From: a virus
Taxonomy: Duplodnaviria; Caudoviricetes
DNA length: 62,123 bases
Virus record (IMG/VR): IMGVR_UViG_3300044460_000010
Span: 1-62,123 of that record
Reading direction: 5' to 3' (one strand)
Made by a program: the position numbers and the translations under genes
Shown: positions 226-26,324 of the stretch, one piece after another
How the letters are laid out: each line of letters begins with the position of its first letter
Position numbering within the stretch: position 1 is the stretch's first letter
The notes under the pieces: model-generated
What the model was told of the DNA's origin: nothing
Databases searched by the model: none
The model's input: the letters and a program-made list of their open reading frames with translations, nothing else

Positions 226-1292
226 CCGGCCTTCCGGATCATGTCGAGCATGTCCTTGCCCTCCCTCATGGCCTTCCCCGGCGCACGGAGAAGTTCGCCG
301 ATTACCGCCCCGTCCTCGGGCTTGGGCGCGCCGTAGCGAGGTGCCACCACCGCCTTGTCACTTCCGCCGCGTGAGGGGTCCGCGCCCAATGCCCGCAGCG
401 GCCCGCGATTCTTGTAGCGTTCCGCCCACCGCTCGTTCGCCAGCTCCACCCACCGCGTGGGAATGAGTTGCCACCGGCCGTCCTGCTTCGACGCGCCAAA
501 GTCGCCTTCGAGGTAGATCGATCGCAGCGGCTCGGGGAGGGTGGCCAGCGTGTTGTGGTAGCCCTGCGCGATGAGCAGGTCGAGCATGTCGCCGGGGATG
601 AATGATCGACTGCGGGGGACGTGGGGCTTGCCCTTGAAGATGACGGGGGTGGCGTCCGCGAACTCCTCTTCCTTGTCACCGATGGTCGTGTACCAGCGCA
701 GTTCGCCCGGACCCGCCCGGTTGCCCGCGTGCGGGTCGAGCCACGCGCGCCAGCGGCGAATCACCCACTCGCCCTCGGCAGTAGTCGGTGGATTCGACGC
801 GCACACCACGCGGCAGCGCTGGCCGGGAACGGTCGTGCGGTTCCAGGCGTTGATAAACAGGTACTGCGATTCGCTAAAATCGACTACCTCGTCGAAGAAC
901 TTTCCGTCGTGCGCACGTCCTTTAAACTTCTGTTTGTCCTTCTCGTTCTCACAGCCGGTCAGTTCAATCGTGCGGCCGGATGCGGTGGTGAGTACACCGC
1001 CGTAGCCACTGCCACGCCAGCGGTCACCGGGCCAGAGCAGTTCCTGGATGCGGGAGGTGACTTCCTGGAGTTGGGTGGCTTCACGACGAAGGATGAGTGT
1101 TTTACGGTGCGCTGTTAGTCCTAAGCCCAAAAGAAGGTCAGATTTTCCAGCGCCCGCGATGCCGCCATAGAACAGTTCATCCGCTTGGTTGCGATACGCC
1201 AGGCTCTGCGGCCCCACGATCGGGAACCACTGGTACGTTTGCCGACAGTGAGCCAGGTACGCTTCCTCCTGCGGCGAGCGCCGCTGCGACAC
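1..1292 (-). CDS. terL: Terminase large subunit, N-terminal part (continues at 61697-61898; ~497 aa total)
   Basis: Manual translation, open to the window edge so absent from the ORF track: LFYGGIAGAGKS Walker A, KFFDEV Walker B, CASNPP, LGADPSRGGSD nuclease motif; in frame with 61697..62116; start codon uncertain. Confidence 0.9.
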   Translation of the reverse strand, partial: MSQRRSPQEEAYLAHCRQTYQWFPIVGPQSLAYRNQADELFYGGIAGAGKSDLLLGLGLTAHRKTLILRREATQLQEVTSRIQELLWPGDRWRGSGYGGVLTTASGRTIELTGCENEKDKQKFKGRAHDGKFFDEVVDFSESQYLFINAWNRTTVPGQRCRVVCASNPPTTAEGEWVIRRWRAWLDPHAGNRAGPGELRWYTTIGDKEEEFADATPVIFKGKPHVPRSRSFIPGDMLDLLIAQGYHNTLATLPEPLRSIYLEGDFGASKQDGRWQLIPTRWVELANERWAERYKNRGPLRALGADPSRGGSDKAVVAPRYGAPKPEDGAVIGELLRAPGKAMREGKDMLDMIRKAGGGVVGIPVNVDGIGIGASLIDSAKLLNVPDIIPIIVSNAANCRDPKCPTLGFLNLRAAMMWKVATLLNPDRGPP

Positions 1293-1659
1293 GTCTGGCG
1301 GCGAGGAACTCGGCAAACTCAGTGGCAAGCTCAATGGGAAGGCTCCCGGCGGACGGTGGCGGGGGTGTGGTCTCTACATTTTCACTATACCCCCGATGCC
1401 GCCCCAGTGTGCGGAGCGCGAACTGAACCGCCCACGACTCGCCCTTCTTGATCGCTGCTAGCAACTTGGATTCCGCCGTGTCGATCAGGGCGCCACGCTC
1501 CTGGTGGATGATGCCCGATATTTCCTTACTGACCTTAGACCGTTCGTATATCGTGTTAGAGTCGCATCCAACCCTCTTCGCAGCCAGAAACACCATACCG
1601 CCCGTCTTTTTCAAAGCGGCGATTATTTCCTTGTCAGAATATTTGCGCGGACGGGCCAT
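1177..1659 (-). CDS. terS: Terminase small subunit (HTH)
   Basis: MARPRKYSDKEIIAALKKTGGMVFLAAKRVGC HTH and AESKLLAAIKKGESWAVQFALRT; directly upstream of terL. Confidence 0.75.
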   Translation of the reverse strand: MARPRKYSDKEIIAALKKTGGMVFLAAKRVGCDSNTIYERSKVSKEISGIIHQERGALIDTAESKLLAAIKKGESWAVQFALRTLGRHRGYSENVETTPPPPSAGSLPIELATEFAEFLAARRVAAALAAGGSVPGSLSANVPVVPDRGAAEPGVSQPSG

Positions 1660-1708
1660 TATGTCTAACGCTGCCTGTGATGGGTATCCCAAGAATTTCC
1701 CACGATTT

Positions 1709-1735
1709 ATGATACTTTGGCACAGGGGAACCTGC
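1709..1735 (-). promoter_or_regulatory. Late promoter motif GCARGTTCCCC-N10-(-10 box), upstream of terS
   Basis: GCAGGTTCCCC-N10-TATCAT; one of 9 copies with identical spacing. Confidence 0.7.
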
Positions 1736-1774
1736 GAGATAGGGGTATGGAGTTTCCATACCCCTATCTCGCTT

Positions 1775-2122
1775 TTACAGGTCGTTGAATTCTGGCAAAG
1801 GAAAATGCTTCTGGATGTAGCGCCGGAAGCACATGTCCACATCGGAAACGCGGTACGCTGGCCCTGGATATTGCGTCGGAGTCGTCCCCCTGAGTCGGTG
1901 AATTGCCTTGCGGAACACGTCCGACTTGTGTTCCGCTTTGGTCCGCTCCCGCTTCCAGCGTTGCCACCGGCGGCGCAGAAGCAGCGCGTGCCTCGGATAT
2001 CCGCCTTCCTCGATCCAATCCGCGAACACCAGCGCCGTATCGAACTCGCCCGCGTGGATCGCACGAACAAAAGTCATTGCCTCTTTCACGCTCAACTTCG
2101 GTTCCCGACTCATTTCCTTCAT
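1775..2122 (-). CDS. TIGR02996-like domain protein
   Basis: AIHAGEFDTALVFADWIEEGG resembles the Planctomycete TIGR02996 motif. Confidence 0.55.
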   Translation of the reverse strand: MKEMSREPKLSVKEAMTFVRAIHAGEFDTALVFADWIEEGGYPRHALLLRRRWQRWKRERTKAEHKSDVFRKAIHRLRGTTPTQYPGPAYRVSDVDMCFRRYIQKHFPLPEFNDL

Positions 2123-2280
2123 GGCTAAACCAGTCATCGCTCACCTCGCTTGAGATTTCCGGCCCAATGTACTTTACGCACGCCGCTTCGCCATCGTTTA
2201 ACGATGTGCAGCCGGGACACGAACCAGGTGTCCCGGCTGCGGGGAAGTGCAACGGGAAGTGCTGGGAGACGTGGTTCAGC

Positions 2281-2487
2281 TCACTGCGATTCCTCCGGGG
2301 TTGCTTCGGGTTTCTCCCGCGCCTCGCCTGCCTGCTCGACATAAGCGGCCCTCGCCGTGGCAAGCTCCTGTTCGAGCCACACGATGTAGTCGCTCAGTTG
2401 TTCAGCATCGGGGTCGCTATTCGACTCCACTTCCAACAGTGGGCCGTTTCGCGCGAACACGTTGATTTCGGGGACCACAAACGGCAT
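2281..2487 (-). CDS. Hypothetical protein
   Basis: Acidic 68-aa ORF with GGAG RBS, in operon orientation. Confidence 0.6.
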   Translation of the reverse strand: MPFVVPEINVFARNGPLLEVESNSDPDAEQLSDYIVWLEQELATARAAYVEQAGEAREKPEATPEESQ

Positions 2488-2585
2488 CGGTCAGTCTCCT
2501 TATGGGTTGCTCTCACTGGGACTCTTCCTTACCGTCGCGGCAGAGGTAAAACCACATCCCGCAGTCGGGGGTTGTTGAGCCGCAT

Positions 2586-4271
2586 TCAGATGCCACAGAC
2601 ACCGGACTTGCAACCGGCCTCAGATTGATCCACGAACTCGACGCCGACCTGATTGACCGCTAACTGATACGGCACCCGGACAAGTGGCTGTCCATCGCGG
2701 CAACCGTCAGGGTATGCCGTGATGCCGCGCAGGTGCGGTAGGTGTGTGAGTAGGTTCGCGGCGAAGTTATCCACCGTGTCGTCAGAGTTCGCCGCGGAAC
2801 CCCAGGCCGGCAAGTTGATCGTGGAGCTAATGCCGTGGTCCACGTGGGTCTGAAGCCACTTCTGGAAGCCAATCCGGCGGTCGACGGATTGCTGATCACA
2901 CGACAGGCTCATCGCGTCCTCAATGGAGTCAGGGTCGACACCGGAGGTGATGAGCCTTTGCGCGGCGGCGTCCACGACATACTGCGCTTTCCACGTCGAG
3001 CCATCCAAGTATCGCCGCTTGAACGCGGTCGCGAAGATCGGCTCAACACCGGAGGTGGTCTCCGCGATGATACTGATCGTGCCCGTGGGCGCGACCGCCC
3101 GCGTTGCCACCGGGCGACTGATGGAGAGGCGGTCGGCCAGTCGGTTCGCGAACGCTCCGGACATGGCGTAGGCCCTCAACCATTCCGCCAGCTCGCTACA
3201 TGGTGCGTAGCGATAGCCACGACACAGGAGCCATTCGTGAATACCCATGAGCCCCAGCCCCAGGCGGCGGTTTCGCTCGCGAATCTGGTACATCGCGGCC
3301 AGGGGGAGCTTGCTGTAAATCGTGCCGCAGAGTAAAAACGCGGTGCCCAACTCCACGGCCTCGGTAAACTCCGCGATTGAACGAAATCGTGCCAGGTTCA
3401 GGCTACCAAGATTGCACATATCACCATCGTCGCGAGAAGTAACCTCGGTGCAAGCATTGCGGAGGTGCTCACCCTCATTGTCGCCGACGTCCACACTGAA
3501 ACCCGGTTCACTGGTTTCCACCATCCCGCGCACCGCGGCAGCATAGACAACTCGTGCGGTTGAGTGTTGGCGATGCATCGCATCGCCAAAGGCCGCGAAG
3601 AACTCATCGTCCTGGATGAGGGAGAGATTCGTCACGTCCAGGGGTGCGGGGAACGAGAAGTCTTGTCGCTTCCCCTCCCGCACGAGACTTGACCAGTTCT
3701 TCGCGGCGATGAATTTCAGGGCGTCGGGGTGGTTCCAGTGGAGACCCGCCCAGATGGCCGAACGGCGACTCCCACCCTGGACGATGTAGCGCCCACACTC
3801 GTTGACCATCTTCATGAGGGCCAGCGGTCCAGTCGATTTACCGCCCATACCGCCGACAGCGGAGCCCTCCGGCCGGAGATTCGAATACACAACCCCAATC
3901 CCGCCGCCGGTCATGAGGGCATTGGTGCATTTCTGGAGTAGTTCCCCCCAGCCCTCACGGGTGTCTTCCGCGCGGAACAAAAAGCAATTATTCACCTGTG
4001 GGAACTTGCGGCCCGCGGCGTAGAGGTATCGGCCACCCGGCATGAACTTCCGTTCGGTGATGAGCCTTTGAATCCGCGTCGTCAATTCCGGCATGTAAGG
4101 CGTGACGACACACCGGGCCACGCGCTCAGCGGTCTCGTGCCACTCCTCTTTCCGCCCATTGACGTCGTGGGCATATTTGTTCTGAAAGATCGTGTTGGCA
4201 AAAGGCGATAGCGATTCCATTGATGAAAACTCCATTGTGATACGATCTAAGGCTTTGGCTTCACTACTCAC
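2586..4271 (-). CDS. nrdJ: Class II (B12-dependent) ribonucleotide reductase
   Basis: FMPGGRYL, NNCF, NACTE, CNLGSLNL, VAPTGTISI, ISSTINLP, C-terminal CKSGVCGI; no beta subunit gene seen; GTG start overlaps thyX stop. Confidence 0.9.
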   Translation of the reverse strand: MSSEAKALDRITMEFSSMESLSPFANTIFQNKYAHDVNGRKEEWHETAERVARCVVTPYMPELTTRIQRLITERKFMPGGRYLYAAGRKFPQVNNCFLFRAEDTREGWGELLQKCTNALMTGGGIGVVYSNLRPEGSAVGGMGGKSTGPLALMKMVNECGRYIVQGGSRRSAIWAGLHWNHPDALKFIAAKNWSSLVREGKRQDFSFPAPLDVTNLSLIQDDEFFAAFGDAMHRQHSTARVVYAAAVRGMVETSEPGFSVDVGDNEGEHLRNACTEVTSRDDGDMCNLGSLNLARFRSIAEFTEAVELGTAFLLCGTIYSKLPLAAMYQIRERNRRLGLGLMGIHEWLLCRGYRYAPCSELAEWLRAYAMSGAFANRLADRLSISRPVATRAVAPTGTISIIAETTSGVEPIFATAFKRRYLDGSTWKAQYVVDAAAQRLITSGVDPDSIEDAMSLSCDQQSVDRRIGFQKWLQTHVDHGISSTINLPAWGSAANSDDTVDNFAANLLTHLPHLRGITAYPDGCRDGQPLVRVPYQLAVNQVGVEFVDQSEAGCKSGVCGI

Positions 4272-15283: not shown

Positions 15284-15416
15284 TGGTTCCGCCAGAATCG
15301 AACTGGGATGATGCGTTTACGCTTCCGCACCGTTAGCCCTGTTTTGCCTCCGCTTTACACGGCAACGAGCCGCTTCGTCGCGGAGATGGATTTAGGGGCA
15401 CCAGCCCCACGGAACC
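15284..15416 (-). ncRNA. tRNA-like RNA (acceptor plus T arm, large insert)
   Basis: GGTTCCG/CGGAACC acceptor; CCAG-TTCGATT-CTGG T arm. Confidence 0.55.
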
Positions 15417-15419
15417 AGC

Positions 15420-15523
15420 GCGGCGGTAGGGAGTCGAACCCCGCTATCGCGAAGAAGCCGTCCACGATGTTGAACCGACATGAGATGAAAATCATGCCGC
15501 ATCGCGGTCTCTTCGCTCGCCGC
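15420..15523 (-). ncRNA. tRNA-like RNA (acceptor plus T arm, long hairpin)
   Basis: GCGGCG/CGCCGC stem; GGGG-TTCGACT-CCCT T arm; internal stems GCGAAGAG/CTTCTTCGC and CGGCATGA/TCATGTCG. Confidence 0.5.
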
Positions 15524-16645: not shown

Positions 16646-16921
16646 TCAGACTGCGTGTTCAGGTCGCCGCTCGGCGCGGCTGGCTTCGAGTTTCTTGGCA
16701 AGCCACGCCACCAGTAGGCGCTTGGGCACGAGCGGCTTCGTGCCGTGGTAAAACGTCTCCAACTCGCCTCGGCTGACGGCACGCTCAATCTCACGCTTAC
16801 ATATGCCGCAGAACAAAGCCGCGTCGTCAAGACTCATCGCGCCATCAGCACAGTCATCGACGACACCGTGCGTCAGGCCGTCAGCCCGTGGTGCGTACAT
16901 CGGTCGTGATGGTCTTGCCAC
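16646..16921 (-). CDS. Excisionase-like HTH protein
   Basis: MSLDDAALFCGICKREIERAVSRGELETF...LVPKRLL, HTH_17-like; near the integrase. Confidence 0.65.
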   Translation of the reverse strand: MARPSRPMYAPRADGLTHGVVDDCADGAMSLDDAALFCGICKREIERAVSRGELETFYHGTKPLVPKRLLVAWLAKKLEASRAERRPEHAV

Positions 16922-16940
16922 GATCGCGCTCCAAAGAAAA

Positions 16941-17015
16941 ACCTCACCATGCCACACCGGACCGGAGCCGACCCCGCCGCAACAGGCCCCGACATGGCTT
17001 GCCGCGCCGTAACCA
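16941..17015 (-). repeat. GGY-NN pentamer array 1 (15 units), putative guide RNA
   Basis: Unbroken 5-nt phase; 10/15 GGY, all GNY; followed by TTTTCTTT on the minus strand. Confidence 0.85.
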
Positions 17016-17018
17016 CAA

Positions 17019-17063
17019 TCCGCCGTCCCGGAGTCGAACCAGGAACCACCGCCCCGCAGCGGA
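17019..17063 (-). ncRNA. Minimal tRNA mimic between arrays
   Basis: 7-bp TCCGCTG/CGGCGGA stem stacked on TCCTGG-TTCGACT-CCGGGA T arm, 12-nt linker. Confidence 0.65.
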
Positions 17064-17068
17064 AGAAA

Positions 17069-17178
17069 ACCTAACCCAACCACATCCTGGCTTGCCATTC
17101 CACGCCCTACCTGGCCAGGCCCGACCTAAGCACGCCCAACCAAACCAAGCCTGAGCACGCCGTACCTCACCGAACCAG
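17069..17178 (-). repeat. GGY-NN pentamer array 2 (22 units), putative guide RNA
   Basis: Starts 2 nt after the stop of the RAMP-like gene; 17/22 GGY; T-rich 3-prime end. Confidence 0.85.
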
Positions 17179-17180
17179 AT

Positions 17181-17831
17181 TTATTCCAACCCAACCTTGA
17201 AGTTCACGACTTGAAATCGTCCGTATGTTGGGCGAAAGTCCGCTATCCCGATCAACCGTCCCGCGTTTGCGATGACCTCGTTCAGCACTTCGGGGCTGAC
17301 GTATTCCGGCAAGTTGCACATCAGTTGAAACTCCGCTTCCCAGCCCGCCTTGAACGCCGGCCGAATGCGGGTCACGCCGTTGCGTTGGATCTGAACGCGA
17401 CAGGAATGTTCATAATGCCATTGCTTGGCGCCAAGCGATGCGAGCGGGGTTAGTGAAATGATCGCGGCCTTGAACAGGTCCATCGCTGATTTGCGGGGCG
17501 AACGCGGGTCTTGACGGAACTTCGCGGCGTGGATGATGGACCAGCGAATGTACTCGCCGGGGATGCAGATTTCGCTCTCATCGTTGCGATAGACGTAGCT
17601 CTCGACGTTGTCCGTCTTCTTGGATTTGCTGCCCTTCGCTGCCGCCGCCTTCTCCGCAACCGCTTCACAGTTCCAGCGGTGGAACAGAATGTCGGCAACG
17701 CCCTTGATTCGCACCGTGGCGACGTAAGGAATGCCAGACTCAATCGCTCCCGCGCCGCCGTTGGTGGGCCGTTCGCCACCGATTGCGGTCAACCGATTCG
17801 TGCCGTTCGTACTTGGCGCTTTTGTCGCCAT
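17181..17831 (-). CDS. Stand-alone Cas7/RAMP-like RNA-binding protein (216 aa)
   Basis: VRIKGVADILFH first strand, ICIPGEYIRWSI (cf. RAMP IPGSSLKG), C-terminal Gly loop AGRLIGIADFRPTYGRFQV; GGAG RBS. Confidence 0.75.
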   Translation of the reverse strand: MATKAPSTNGTNRLTAIGGERPTNGGAGAIESGIPYVATVRIKGVADILFHRWNCEAVAEKAAAAKGSKSKKTDNVESYVYRNDESEICIPGEYIRWSIIHAAKFRQDPRSPRKSAMDLFKAAIISLTPLASLGAKQWHYEHSCRVQIQRNGVTRIRPAFKAGWEAEFQLMCNLPEYVSPEVLNEVIANAGRLIGIADFRPTYGRFQVVNFKVGLE

Positions 17832-17859
17832 GAAATGAACTCCGTGAAAGAAGAAAGAA

Positions 17860-18079
17860 ACCCTGCCGTGCCACGCCCAGCCTGAACTAACCAAGCCTCA
17901 CCAAACCAAGCCCTGGCCTACCGTGCCCGACCCAGCCTAACCGCACCCCACCCAGCCCTGCCTTGTCCAGGCCAGCCAAACCGTGCCATGCCCCACCGGG
18001 ACAGACCGCACCACTCCGCAGCGCACCGTGCCTTGCCGTGCCAAGACACACCTAAGCATGCCCAACCCCGCCACGCCAT
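17860..18079 (-). repeat. GGY-NN pentamer array 3 (44 units), putative guide RNA(s)
   Basis: 220 nt with no indel; first G invariant, 35/44 GGY; ends in TTCTTTCTTCTTT. Confidence 0.9.
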
Positions 18080-19120: not shown

Positions 19121-20170
19121 ATGGCATCCCGCAAGCGAGCGCCCAAAGGCACCGGCACCGTGTTCTGGTGCGAGTGCCGTAAATGCTGGATCGCACGCAA
19201 GACGGTGAACGGGGTGCGGATCGAGCGACACGGCAAGACGCAGGCTGAAGCGCTCCGCAAACTCGCCCTGGCACTGCCGCCCGAACCGGCAGTCACGTTC
19301 TCGGTGTGGTCGGCGCGCTGGCTCGAATCGCTCGGCCACAAACAGCAAACAGTGGACTCCTACCGCGACACGCTCCGGTTGCACATCAACCCGCGGTTGG
19401 GCACACGCGCGGTCAACTCCATCACCGCTTTTGATATCAAGGAAGCGATCAAGTTCTGGGGAGAGAGTTCGCACGCGGGCACCGTGGGTAAGATCCTGAC
19501 GTGTCTCTCCGGGTGTCTCCAGGGCGCGTGCGATGCGGAGATCATCACACGCAACGTCGCCCGTGCGGTCAAGCGGCCCGTTGTGTCGAAGGTGGAACTC
19601 GACCTCTTCACGCCGGAGGAACTGAAGCGCATCATCGCGGCCGGGCTGTCACGGCGGACGTGGCGAAGCTTCGCGCTCTGTGCCGCGACGGGTTGCCGCA
19701 TCGGCGAAGCAACCGCGCTCAAGGCCGGCGACTACGACGCCGCTACGGGGATGCTCTCCATCACGCGCACGCTCACCCGCCGGCACGGACTCAGTACCGC
19801 CAAGAGCAAGGCTTCTCGCCGCGTAATCTGGATTCCGCCGGACGTGCGGCCCGCACTCGTCGCGGGCATCCGCAATTCGAGCTACGCCAACGTGCATGTG
19901 TTCTGGCGGAATCTGCTCGCGCACCTGGGGCTGCGATACCGCAACATCCACCAACTCAAGCACTCGGTGGCATCGATCCTCGTAGCGGAAGGGGAGTCGA
20001 TTGCCGACGCGGCGGCGTACATGGGCGACACATTCGAGGTGTTCGCCAGAACGTACATCCACGCTGTGGGAACCAACCCCGGGGCCACTCTTGAGCGCGT
20101 ATTAGGTGGCGGTAAGGTGGCGGGCGAATCGCGTGTGCGTGCGAAAATCCCCGGAAAATCAGGGCTTTGA
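19121..20170 (+). CDS. int: Tyrosine integrase
   Basis: ATGCRIGEATAL, KSKASRRVI, HQLKHSVAS (R replaced by K), MGD...TYIH catalytic Tyr; N-terminal arm-binding domain. Confidence 0.92.
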   Translation: MASRKRAPKGTGTVFWCECRKCWIARKTVNGVRIERHGKTQAEALRKLALALPPEPAVTFSVWSARWLESLGHKQQTVDSYRDTLRLHINPRLGTRAVNSITAFDIKEAIKFWGESSHAGTVGKILTCLSGCLQGACDAEIITRNVARAVKRPVVSKVELDLFTPEELKRIIAAGLSRRTWRSFALCAATGCRIGEATALKAGDYDAATGMLSITRTLTRRHGLSTAKSKASRRVIWIPPDVRPALVAGIRNSSYANVHVFWRNLLAHLGLRYRNIHQLKHSVASILVAEGESIADAAAYMGDTFEVFARTYIHAVGTNPGATLERVLGGGKVAGESRVRAKIPGKSGL

Positions 20171-25688: not shown

Positions 25689-25763
25689 GGTAAGTTCGGG
25701 CTTGGTAGGTTGGGGCTAGGTTAGGCGCGTTGTGGCGTGCTTAGGTATGGTCAGGCGAGATGC
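25689..25763 (+). repeat. Orphan GGY-NN pentamer array 4 (15 units)
   Basis: GGT-AA GTT-CG GGC-TT GGT-AG ...; 10/15 GGY, all GNY, unbroken phase. Confidence 0.8.
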
Positions 25764-26324
25764 ACCGCACAGGGGGCTGGCTTCGGCTTGCCCCCTGTTG
25801 TTTTCACCCTTCCAAGCCACGACGGACGCGAAGAGACCGTATCGCAGGAGCAGGTATCGCCGAATCCCCCGCCTGGCATCCTCCCTCGTCTCAAACACCG
25901 CAATCTTCTCCGTCGGTCTCCAGCGATTGCGCTTCAGCCTTTGCATCACGACAACCTCTTCGCGATTGCCGATCACCCACACCGCGGCGATGAACCCGCC
26001 AAACCGTTTACTCTCGCGAATCTGGAAGGGGTTGATTTTGCGCGTGGCGAGCACCGCCCGCCAGTTGTCGCCGAAGGTCTCCGCGTACCACCGTGCGACG
26101 AATCGCGCCGTCACGTGCGGTTGCGTGCTGCGACTGCCGGGGATGTTGTAGAGGCAGCCCCCGAGCTTCACGCGCGCGACCCACACGGGATTGCCGGCGG
26201 GGTCGATGCGATGGCGGTAGACGTTGCGAAAGCCCGATTCGGCGGTCCGGCAGCGAAGCGGGCCGATCAGGCGCTCAACAGGGACGGTGGAAGTGGTCGG
26301 CGGTTCGCAGAATTGACGCAACAC
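25716..26324 (-). CDS. AP2-like DNA-binding domain protein
   Basis: SGFRNVYRH...WVARVKLGG; start uncertain; C-terminal tail is antisense to array 4. Confidence 0.5.
   Translation of the reverse strand: MLRQFCEPPTTSTVPVERLIGPLRCRTAESGFRNVYRHRIDPAGNPVWVARVKLGGCLYNIPGSRSTQPHVTARFVARWYAETFGDNWRAVLATRKINPFQIRESKRFGGFIAAVWVIGNREEVVVMQRLKRNRWRPTEKIAVFETREDARRGIRRYLLLRYGLFASVVAWKGENNRGQAEASPLCGASRLTIPKHATTRLT
25769..25805 (+). terminator. Intrinsic terminator after array 4
   Basis: ACAGGGGGC/GCCCCCTGT stem, TTCG loop, TGTTTTC tail. Confidence 0.65.

What the first reader, a model, noticed from the sequence alone, without database searches (positions are those of the whole stretch)
17019..17063. 45-nt tRNA mimic separating two guide arrays
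Seen: between arrays 2 and 1 lies a 7-bp acceptor-like stem stacked on a T arm with a TTCGACT loop, with only a 12-nt GGTGG-containing linker instead of D and anticodon arms. Known: the acceptor/T-arm half is what RNase P and RNase Z recognise. Inference: host tRNA-processing enzymes cut the transcript into separate guides, standing in for Cas6, like engineered tRNA-gRNA polycistrons.
Basis: partly seen in the sequence, partly recalled or inferred. Interest (0 to 1): 0.82.

Follow-up and report, generated by a model that had tools for sequence, protein, structure and literature searches.

The report
tRNA-like punctuation in phage guide-RNA array
A 45-base RNA fold shaped like the top half of a transfer RNA sits between two guide RNAs of a phage's VIPR gene-silencing system, and it belongs to a large conserved family that probably tells the host's tRNA-trimming enzymes where to cut.

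Summary
On the minus strand, 17063..17019 forms a 7-bp acceptor-like stem, a 12-nt GG-containing linker, and a 6-bp T stem with a TTCGACT loop.

The "guide arrays" are real. The window is a 62-kb temperate phage carrying a VIPR system, described in 2026 preprints: a Vipr RAMP protein (17831..17184) flanked by GGYNN pentamer guide tracts.

The element alone is weak evidence:
- its fold z-score is 0.10;
- ARAGORN and Rfam find nothing;
- it is absent from 80 loci of the same Vipr clade.

The family evidence is strong. A scan of viral contigs found 128 copies of the same module in 50 loci, next to guide tracts:
- 95% of cells pair, against 67% when shuffled;
- 10 of 11 pairs show compensatory changes;
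- the linker GG is invariant;
- the stack is 11-13 bp.

A covariance model built without the window ranks this element first in the window (22 bits, E about 0.015).

The module brackets each guide in Gordonia phage Trine. In Streptomyces phage Endor2 it separates ordinary protein genes where no Vipr was detected. That favours a host-read processing signal (RNase P/Z) over a Vipr-specific handle. Cleavage itself is inferred, not shown.

The accessible text of the three VIPR preprints never mentions tRNA. This scan noted similar tails once before on other DNA (e1-3381960).

The parts
17019..17063 (-). tRNA-like minihelix (TLS): 7-bp acceptor-like stem, 12-nt GG-containing linker, 6-bp T stem and TTCGACT loop. 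It sits between two guide tracts.
   Evidence: Sequence read. Descriptor test. Top hit of model R1 at 17075..17010, 22.0 bits. Stack 6+7 = 13 bp and linker 12 nt, inside the family range.
17064..17180 (-). GGYNN guide tract A (vrRNA repeat tract). It starts right after the vipr stop codon and ends in a U-rich motif just before the TLS.
   Evidence: Period-5 GG run detected at 17176..17095, 15 of 17 units with GG. Sequence.
16942..17018 (-). GGYNN guide tract B. It starts right after the TLS and ends in the same U-rich motif about 40 nt before the HTH gene. It has no TLS.
   Evidence: Run detected at 16988..16942, 8 of 10 units. Sequence.
17184..17831 (-). vipr gene: 216-aa RAMP protein, a homologue of SUSP1 Vipr.
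   Evidence: Profile A1 against PDB chain 36pp_D, 'SUSP1 Vipr protein', E 1.3e-9. blastp against the SUSP1 CDS, 29% identity, E 3e-13. AF2 model pLDDT 86, matching Csm3/Cas7 at E about 1e-6. phrog_4652.
17861..18077 (-). GGYNN guide tracts upstream of vipr: two abutting runs in different phase (18077..17976 and 17962..17861). No TLS.
   Evidence: 17 of 21 and 19 of 21 units.
16646..16900 (-). 84-aa HTH_17 DNA-binding protein. Candidate accessory (vap-like) or excisionase-like gene.
   Evidence: Pfam HTH_17, E 3.5e-5, 24.4 bits, below the 27-bit cutoff. No similarity to SUSP1 vap1 (blastp E 0.031).
25689..25804 (+). Solo GGYNN tract (25689-25755) followed by a GC hairpin and T-run (25770-25804): a fourth candidate guide ended by an intrinsic terminator.
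   Evidence: 10 of 14 units. Sequence.

Best explanation
The window is a temperate phage with a VIPR locus: a Vipr RAMP protein and guide RNAs made of GGYNN repeats, all on the minus strand. The 45-nt element is a tRNA top-half mimic, an acceptor-like stem stacked on a T arm, with a short GG-containing linker in place of the D loop. It sits exactly at the junction of two guide tracts that lie on one transcript. It is a divergent member of a large family of such modules.

Shown:
- the structure;
- its covariation across the family;
- its placement at guide and gene boundaries.

Inferred (my odds about 0.65 given the first part): the host's tRNA-end enzymes recognise the minihelix. RNase P would cut at its 5' edge, about 17064|17063. 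RNase Z or 3' trimming would act after the base following the 3' strand, about 17018|17017. This would separate guide A from guide B, as tRNAs do in mitochondrial transcripts and in engineered tRNA-gRNA arrays. Whether the minihelix stays attached to guide A as a protective 3' cap is open.
For: VIPR context:
- Vipr homology.
- Pentamer tracts in the window.
- 75 of 80 related loci carry such tracts on the gene strand: 4175 units against 33 on the other strand.
- The system is described in PMC13142463 (sections 4, 10 and 16 read).

Family:
- A pattern scan of IMG/VR gave 103 stretches, of which 80 loci were listed.
- Model R1 finds 128 copies at E<=0.01 in 50 of those 80 loci. 23 loci hold 2-11 copies.
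- Most of the 78 gaps between successive copies are 97-185 nt.

Structure:
- On the structure-blind MAFFT alignment, 9 of 11 pairs show compensatory changes.
- On the model alignment, 95.0% of cells pair, against 67.4% shuffled and at most 53.2% when slid. Covariation score is 0.704 against 0.177. 10 of 11 pairs have double changes.

tRNA-specific features:
- linker GG in 128/128 copies;
- T-loop G53, T54, C56 and C61 in 128/128, though this is partly ascertainment bias;
- outermost pair G-C in 102/123 distinct rows;
- next base a purine in 122/128, then C in 115/128.

The stack length is 11-13 bp in 113 of 122 copies. The window has 13.

The window's element is the top R1 hit, above all controls.

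Layout:
- Loci L139 and L141, whose Vipr proteins are 63-68% identical to clade members, have vipr, tract, TLS, tract, next gene, as the window does. Their last tract has no TLS.
- Phage Trine has vipr, TLS, guide, TLS, guide, TLS, gene.
- Phage Endor2 has 6 of 6 TLS copies in gaps between protein genes, with no GGYNN tract and no Vipr hit.
Against: - There are no RNA data: cleavage, ends and expression are untested.
- The element scores 22 bits, below the 30-64 bits of family members. It lacks the family's conserved 3' flank.
- Its fold is no more stable than shuffles, and an alternative fold wins in context.
- R1 finds nothing at E<=1 in the 80 loci of the window's own Vipr clade.
- Only one of the window's four or more guide tracts has the element, so guides can evidently be made without it.
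- In the characterised SUSP1 system the tail stays on the mature guide and caps the Vipr filament. A pure cap role is therefore possible.
- The T-loop was part of my search pattern, so its invariance is partly circular.
Confidence: 0.6

Rival explanations
1. The minihelix is only a structural 3' handle. It caps the guide, blocks 3' exonucleases and sets the register or nucleation of the Vipr filament, as the SUSP1 pseudoknot tail does. Host tRNA enzymes are not involved.
For: - SUSP1 vrRNAs keep an invariant structured tail, which is seen at the 3' end of the filament in cryo-EM (passages read).
- In most family loci every guide tract, including the last, is followed by a TLS (terminal examples).
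- Spacing between copies (most gaps 97-185 nt) matches a guide-plus-tail unit.
Against: - The same module stands between protein genes in Endor2, where no guide tract or Vipr was detected.
- In Trine one copy follows the vipr stop codon with no guide upstream.
- In the window, L139 and L141 only the junction between two tracts has the module.
- The conserved G-C closing pair, purine, C, and 11-13 bp stack are tRNA-enzyme determinants. A cap does not need them.
Confidence: 0.25
2. It is the phage attachment site: a copy of the 3' part of a host tRNA gene, used by the integrase at 19121-20170.
For: A tyrosine integrase lies 2 kb away (Pfam and PHROG hits), and an HTH_17 protein lies next to the element.
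Against: - The 25-mer from T arm to 3' end has 0 matches in one genome for each of 185,579 species.
- The 20-mer has 7 matches. All read as protein-coding context, and none lies in an ARAGORN tRNA.
- The 22-mer has 0 matches in viral contigs.
- The element has its own 5' acceptor strand.
- The family occurs in tandem copies inside guide arrays.
Confidence: 0.02
3. It is a chance stem-loop inside G-rich repeat DNA, with no function.
For: - z-score 0.10.
- No ARAGORN or Rfam hit.
- No sequence homologue in 80 clade loci.
- T-arm-like motifs occur about once per shuffled window.
Against: - The full descriptor appeared in 4 of 300 shuffles.
- The independent model ranks it first of 124 kb searched, and it lies exactly at a guide junction.
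- L139 and L141 have the same layout.
Confidence: 0.05
4. It is a tRNA mimic with another client: CCA addition or aminoacylation, recruitment of T-loop modifying enzymes as chaperones, or a decoy for tRNA-targeting defence nucleases.
For: The T loop, the GG 'elbow', the G-C closing pair and the purine discriminator-like base are conserved.
Against: No CCA is encoded. There is no anticodon arm. The punctuation layout is explained more simply by end processing.
Confidence: 0.05

Closest known systems
VIPR systems (Vipr + vrRNA), including hammerhead-ribozyme-interspersed vrRNA arrays (bioRxiv 10.64898/2026.04.26.720920 = PMC13142463)
   Same: A phage-encoded small RAMP protein flanked on its own strand by GGY/NN pentamer guide tracts. 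Array architectures vary, and some carry a self-cleaving RNA between guides (sections 4 and 16 and the supplementary figure legends).
   Different: Here the element between guides is a tRNA top-half mimic, not a ribozyme or a pseudoknot. It cannot cut itself, so it would rely on host enzymes. 'tRNA' occurs 0 times in the held text of the three VIPR preprints. I could not see their supplementary tables.
SUSP1 vrRNA 3' pseudoknot tail
   Same: A conserved structured element directly 3' of the repeat tract.
   Different: SUSP1 tails are about 40-nt hairpin-pseudoknots. Each vrRNA has its own A/T-rich upstream stretch and a T-run. Model R1 scores at most 6.1 bits on the SUSP1 locus.
Engineered polycistronic tRNA-gRNA arrays, and the mitochondrial 'tRNA punctuation' model (both recalled, not read here)
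   Same: Guides or mRNAs are separated by tRNA-shaped units that RNase P and RNase Z excise. The Trine layout, TLS-guide-TLS-guide-TLS, is the same design.
   Different: This is natural and viral. The unit is a 45-55-nt minihelix with no D or anticodon arm. Cleavage is untested.
mascRNA/MEN-beta tRNA-like RNAs (Rfam RF01684)
   Same: A tRNA-like fold within a longer RNA that sets an RNA end through RNase P and RNase Z (function recalled).
   Different: Only sub-threshold matches on the TLS array of L156 (21.0 and 17.7 bits against a gathering score of 42.5). mascRNA is eukaryotic and has a full cloverleaf.
tmRNA tRNA-like domain, and synthetic acceptor/T-arm minihelix substrates of RNase P (recalled)
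   Same: An acceptor stem stacked on a T arm, with the D arm reduced to a short loop that can touch the T loop.
   Different: There is no CCA end, no tag reading frame and no G3-U70. ARAGORN finds no tmRNA in the window.
Cas6 processing of CRISPR arrays
   Same: A repeat-derived structured unit between guides defines the guide ends.
   Different: No dedicated nuclease gene is evident in the locus. The recognised shape is that of a host substrate.

Membership tests
VIPR system | Vipr protein: a small RAMP homologous to SUSP1 Vipr | tested here: met
   Profile against PDB 36pp_D, E 1.3e-9. tblastn hit to phiSUSP1, E 2e-5. blastp 29% identity over 153 aa, E 3e-13. Csm3/Cas7-like fold.
VIPR system | GGY/NN pentamer repeat tracts flanking vipr on its strand | tested here: met
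   Four period-5 runs on the minus strand at 16942-18077. 75 of 80 related loci have them on the gene strand.
VIPR system | Conserved structured 3' tail on each vrRNA | tested here: inconclusive
   Only tract A is followed by the TLS. The other tracts share only a short U-rich motif. The solo tract ends in a terminator hairpin.
VIPR system | Accessory vap gene | tested here: inconclusive
   An HTH_17 protein lies downstream, scoring below the Pfam cutoff. It shows no similarity to SUSP1 vap1.
VIPR system | vrRNAs are expressed and bound by Vipr | not testable with these tools
   No RNA run was listed.
tRNA-like vrRNA tail / intercistronic TLS family (model R1) | 6-bp T stem with a 7-nt TTCRANN loop, stacked without a gap on a 5-7-bp acceptor-like stem (total 11-13 bp) | tested here: met
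   Window: 6 + 7 = 13 bp, junction offset 0. Family: 11-13 bp in 113 of 122 copies.
tRNA-like vrRNA tail / intercistronic TLS family (model R1) | 10-12-nt linker with an invariant GG | tested here: met
   The window's linker is 12 nt and contains GG. In the family, GG is present in 128/128 copies, and the linker is 10-12 nt in 100/122.
tRNA-like vrRNA tail / intercistronic TLS family (model R1) | Significant covariance-model score | tested here: inconclusive
   22.0 bits, rough E 0.015. It is the top hit of the window and above the 16.1-bit maximum in 86 kb of controls. It is below the 30-64 bits of accepted members.
tRNA-like vrRNA tail / intercistronic TLS family (model R1) | Conserved 3' flank (purine, C, G, C) after the acceptor 3' strand | tested here: not met
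   The window has T-T-G-T there. L141 shares the window's flank.
Canonical tRNA or tmRNA gene | Cloverleaf with D and anticodon arms, or a tag reading frame | tested here: not met
   ARAGORN found 0 genes. There was no Rfam tRNA or tmRNA match even when only 116 nt were searched at E<=10.
attP core copied from a host tRNA 3' end | Identity to the 3' end of a real tRNA gene | tested here: not met
   0 matches for the 25-mer. The 20-mer has 7 matches, none in a tRNA.
RNase P / RNase Z substrate | An acceptor/T-arm coaxial helix of about 12 bp with a T loop, and actual cleavage | not testable with these tools
   The shape criterion is met (13 bp). There is no encoded CCA. Cleavage needs experiments.

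The most novel reading that the evidence does not exclude
Phages have a natural counterpart of the engineered tRNA-gRNA array. A stripped-down tRNA top half of about 50 nt is used as universal punctuation, read by host RNase P and RNase Z. It releases VIPR guide RNAs, and in actinophages such as Endor2 it also separates individual cistrons. This would be a third route to guide maturation, beside Cas6-type nucleases and self-cleaving ribozymes, and a bacterial-virus version of mitochondrial tRNA punctuation.
Probability: 0.45. Interest if true: 0.82.

Novelty: new variant of a known kind. Interest (0 to 1): 0.7.

Why it matters
VIPR was described only in 2026, and how its guides are cut out of longer transcripts is largely open.

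- **A host-dependent route.** A tRNA-shaped unit between guides would mean that many VIPR phages borrow the host's essential tRNA-maturation enzymes instead of carrying a nuclease or a ribozyme.
- **Annotation.** This explains why such arrays have been mis-annotated as protein genes or as "tRNA-Arg" in cultured phages.
- **Testable systems.** Gordonia phage Trine and Streptomyces phage Endor2 are cultured phages of non-pathogenic hosts in which it can be tested.
- **Multiplexing.** It suggests a compact natural part for multiplexing VIPR guides.
- **A wider role.** The same unit between ordinary phage genes hints at a general, undescribed layer of mRNA processing in actinophages.

Tried and rejected
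- **Single-sequence folding.** This gave no support.
- **ARAGORN at default thresholds.** It found nothing. At an 80% threshold it gave poor, overlapping models in both test segments, which I treat as noise.
- **Rfam.** The gathering and E-value searches of the window gave no relevant family.
- **attP idea.** Exact-match scans found no tRNA.
- **Homologue search.** blastn-short in 80 Vipr-clade loci found none. The strict descriptor had 0 hits there. The loose descriptor showed no clear enrichment apart from L079 and the window.
- **Relatives through the HTH_17 protein.** None were found in viral contigs.
- **Sub-family pattern** (T loop plus the window/L141 3' flank). Of 23 stretches, only L141 is a VIPR locus. 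The rest are real tRNAs, a tmRNA or coding DNA.
- **Expression data.** No RNA holder was listed, and read laying was not used.
- **Rfam on 20 related loci.** It found only a hammerhead II (L047) and a twister-P5 (L034), both away from the arrays.
- **Literature.** Four searches found no paper on tRNA-like units in VIPR arrays or between Streptomyces phage genes: 'pentanucleotide repeats'+'phage genome'+'intergenic' (0 papers); 'vrRNA'+'tRNA-like' (0 papers); 'vrRNAs'+'Vipr' (only the three preprints); 'tRNA-like'+'Streptomyces phage'+'intergenic' (3 unrelated papers, listing only).
- **Supplementary files** of the preprints were closed. They may already classify tail types.

Full report
**What is there.**
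- a 7-bp stem, 17063-17057 paired with 17025-17019;
- a 12-nt linker rich in GG, 17056-17045;
- a 6-bp stem, 17044-17039 paired with 17031-17026;
- a 7-nt loop reading TTCGACT, 17038-17032.

All 13 pairs are standard, and two of them are G-U. The element lies between two tracts in which GG recurs every five bases: 17176..17095 and 16988..16942. A longer double tract lies at 18077..17861, on the other side of a 216-codon gene.

**Is it more than chance, taken alone?** Only weakly.
- A descriptor written after the fact asked for a 5-bp T stem, a TTCRANN loop, an adjacent perfect 7-bp stem and a linker of 0-30 nt. It hits once in the window, at this element. It appeared in 4 of 300 dinucleotide shuffles.
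- Folding energy gives nothing. The z-score is 0.10.
- The proposed fold (-17.0 kcal/mol) is not the minimum (-18.5). In a 240-nt context its pair probabilities are 0.03 or less.
- ARAGORN finds no tRNA or tmRNA.
- Rfam finds nothing relevant at gathering scores or at E<=10, even when only 116 nt are searched.

**Context.**
- The window is an entire virus record.
- It carries a tyrosine integrase at 19121-20170.
- The 216-aa protein (17831..17184) has no Pfam family.
- It has at least 80 relatives in viral contigs.
- In 75 of these 80 loci the gene is flanked, on its own strand, by the same period-5 GG tracts: 4175 units on the gene strand against 33 on the other.

**The protein is a Vipr homologue.**
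- A profile of 36 of these proteins matches PDB chain 36pp_D, "SUSP1 Vipr protein", at E 1.3e-9.
- The AlphaFold model (pLDDT 86) matches Csm3/Cas7 RAMPs at E about 1e-6.
- The protein aligns to the SUSP1 gene product at 29% identity, E 3e-13.

**What VIPR is.** The preprint PMC13142463 (sections 4, 10 and 16 read) describes Viral Interference Programmable Repeat systems. A Vipr protein polymerises on guide RNAs (vrRNAs) made of 9-16 YNNGG repeats, followed by a conserved structured 3' tail. The complex silences competing phages. Array architectures vary and include hammerhead-ribozyme-interspersed arrays.

**The attachment-site rival.** An integrase nearby suggested a copied tRNA 3' end.
- The 25-mer from T arm to 3' end has no match in one genome for each of 185,579 species.
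- The 20-mer has seven matches. All are in coding-looking context, and none lies in an ARAGORN tRNA.
- The 22-mer is absent from viral contigs.
- The element also has its own 5' strand.

I regard this rival as nearly refuted.

**Relatives of the element.** The 80 clade loci hold no sequence homologue, no strict descriptor hit and no ARAGORN tRNA. One locus is an exception: L079, whose Vipr is 71% identical to the window's. It has a 67-nt cloverleaf-like tRNA mimic right after a tract.

I then scanned all IMG/VR contigs for five or more GGYNN units followed within 20-50 nt by the T-loop core.
- The scan gave 103 stretches, of which 80 loci were listed.
- Of 106 such sites, 68 distinct ones had all five T-stem pairs. 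This was my filter.
- I aligned 65 of the 68 with MAFFT, leaving out three near-duplicates.
- RNAalifold returned a 6-bp T stem stacked on a 5-bp acceptor-like stem. Nine of 11 pairs were kept through changes on both sides. The sixth T pair and the acceptor pairs were not part of my filter.

**The covariance model.** Model R1 was built from this alignment, without the window.
- It finds 128 copies at E<=0.01 in 50 of the 80 loci. 23 loci hold 2-11 copies.
- Most of the 78 gaps between successive copies are 97-185 nt. That is one guide tract plus one module.
- On that alignment 95.0% of cells pair, against 67.4% in shuffles and at most 53.2% when partners are slid.
- The covariation score is 0.704 against 0.177, and 10 of 11 pairs have double changes. 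That alignment is fitted to the model. The MAFFT result shows the same helices.

**tRNA-like detail.**
- The linker GG is present in 128 of 128 copies.
- The outermost modelled pair is G-C in 102 of 123 distinct rows.
- The next base is a purine in 122 of 128, followed by C in 115 of 128.
- The continuous stack of T stem plus acceptor stem is 11 bp in 52 copies, 12 bp in 47 and 13 bp in 14, of 122.
- The linker is 10-12 nt in 100 of 122.

The T-loop's invariance is partly a consequence of my search pattern. From general knowledge (recalled, not tested here), these are the features of the tRNA "top half" that RNase P, RNase Z and the CCA-adding enzyme read. The GG matches the D-loop G18-G19 that docks on the T loop.

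**Is the window's element a member?**
- R1 was run over the whole window on both strands with filters off. Its best hit is 17075..17010 at 22.0 bits (rough E 0.015). The runner-up scores 17.2 bits.
- In 86 kb of Vipr-clade control loci the maximum is 16.1 bits, which is L079's T arm.
- The element has a 13-bp stack and a 12-nt linker, inside the family range.
- It scores below accepted members (30-64 bits) and lacks their purine-C-G-C flank.

It is therefore a divergent member. Two family loci, L139 and L141, have Vipr proteins 63-68% identical to members of the window's clade. Both show the window's layout: vipr, tract, TLS, tract, next gene, with no TLS after the last tract.

**Handle or punctuation?** In the characterised SUSP1 locus each vrRNA has its own A/T-rich upstream stretch, a hairpin-pseudoknot tail and a T-run. 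R1 scores at most 6.1 bits there. In the TLS loci the next guide tract begins within a few bases of the module, which leaves no room for a promoter. The guides must therefore be cut from a longer RNA.

Three observations favour a host-read cutting signal over a Vipr-specific handle:
1. In the window, L139 and L141, only the junction between two tracts has the module.
2. In cultured Gordonia phage Trine, three modules (53-58 bits) bracket two guide tracts. The first follows the vipr-like stop codon directly, with no guide upstream.
3. In cultured Streptomyces phage Endor2, six modules (42-52 bits) all lie in gaps between annotated protein genes. No GGYNN tract and no Vipr hit was found in that 4.6-kb stretch, and one module is annotated "tRNA-Arg".

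A BLAST of one TLS array found short matches in 121 phage records: 103 Streptomyces, 12 Mycobacterium and 6 Gordonia. I inspected only two of them.

**What remains inferred.**
- No RNA data exist for this phage. No RNA holder was listed.
- Cleavage by RNase P (expected at about 17064|17063) and by RNase Z or 3' trimming (expected at about 17018|17017) is therefore a prediction.
- The module may also stay on guide A as a 3' cap, as the SUSP1 tail does.
- The window's other tracts end in a shared U-rich motif, or in a terminator hairpin in the case of the solo tract at 25689-25804. This phage therefore makes most guide ends in other ways.

**Novelty.**
- VIPR itself is known.
- A tRNA-shaped unit in vrRNA arrays is not mentioned in the held text of the three VIPR preprints. 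'tRNA' occurs 0 times, including in the methods and supplementary figure legends of the first.
- Searches for 'vrRNA' with 'tRNA-like' found nothing.
- This scan recorded a similar reading once before on another genome: e1-3381960, "tRNA-like 45-mers are the tails of guide RNAs".
- It also recorded several phage tRNA top-half mimics proposed as cutting signals.

I therefore class this as a new variant of a known kind.

Noticed in passing
window 25689-25804 (+): A solo GGYNN tract (14 units) on the opposite strand, 8 kb from vipr. It is followed by a GC-rich hairpin and a T-run. It looks like an independent vrRNA with a terminator as its 3' end.
   Followed up: partly
window 17861-18077 (-): The tract upstream of vipr consists of two runs of 21 units in different phase, abutting with no structured separator. 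This may be the 'staggered' array type mentioned in the preprint.
   Followed up: no
window about 17862-17850, 17075-17064 and 16942-16930 (-): All three minus-strand tracts end in the same short motif, AGG followed by a run of T with one C. It may be the clade's own guide-end signal. L001 shows it too.
   Followed up: no
window 15410-15463 (-): A second exact GGTTCGACTCC lies in a region of unclear coding status. Model R1 gives only 14.5 bits (E 0.64), so it is probably chance.
   Followed up: partly
L079 3441-3507: A 67-nt element right after a guide tract. Its minimum-energy fold is a small cloverleaf: a 6-bp acceptor, two small hairpins and a canonical T arm. Its Vipr is 71% identical to the window's.
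   Followed up: partly
L216 (Gordonia phage Trine NC_047991) 1939-2250: The annotated CDS gp40 starts inside the TLS-guide array. A ribosome-binding site and ATG at about 2251 look like the real start. gp41 is an unannotated Vipr homologue.
   Followed up: partly
L215 (Streptomyces phage Endor2 NC_054673) 581-4119: Six TLS modules occupy six intergenic gaps of an operon of small genes. One is annotated tRNA-Arg. No GGYNN tract and no Vipr hit was found in the stretch.
   Followed up: partly
L017, L018, L020; L070, L071; L019: Other loci of the window's Vipr clade separate guide tracts with different conserved units: about 90-108 nt, 53 nt and 44-nt hairpins. None is matched by Rfam at gathering scores. 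These are possibly other punctuation solutions.
   Followed up: no
L047 1576-1642 (+); L034 1398-1474 (-): A hammerhead type II ribozyme (51.9 bits) and a twister-P5 ribozyme (40 bits) lie in related phage loci, a few kb from the guide arrays.
   Followed up: no
L002 4001-4627 and 6310-6912: There are two Vipr-like genes in one locus, each preceded by a guide tract.
   Followed up: no
window 16646-17098 (-): The 150-codon ORF that covers the element is an artefact of an open frame through the repeat tract. The HTH_17 match lies in residues 88-135, and the likely start is the ATG at 16900.
   Followed up: partly
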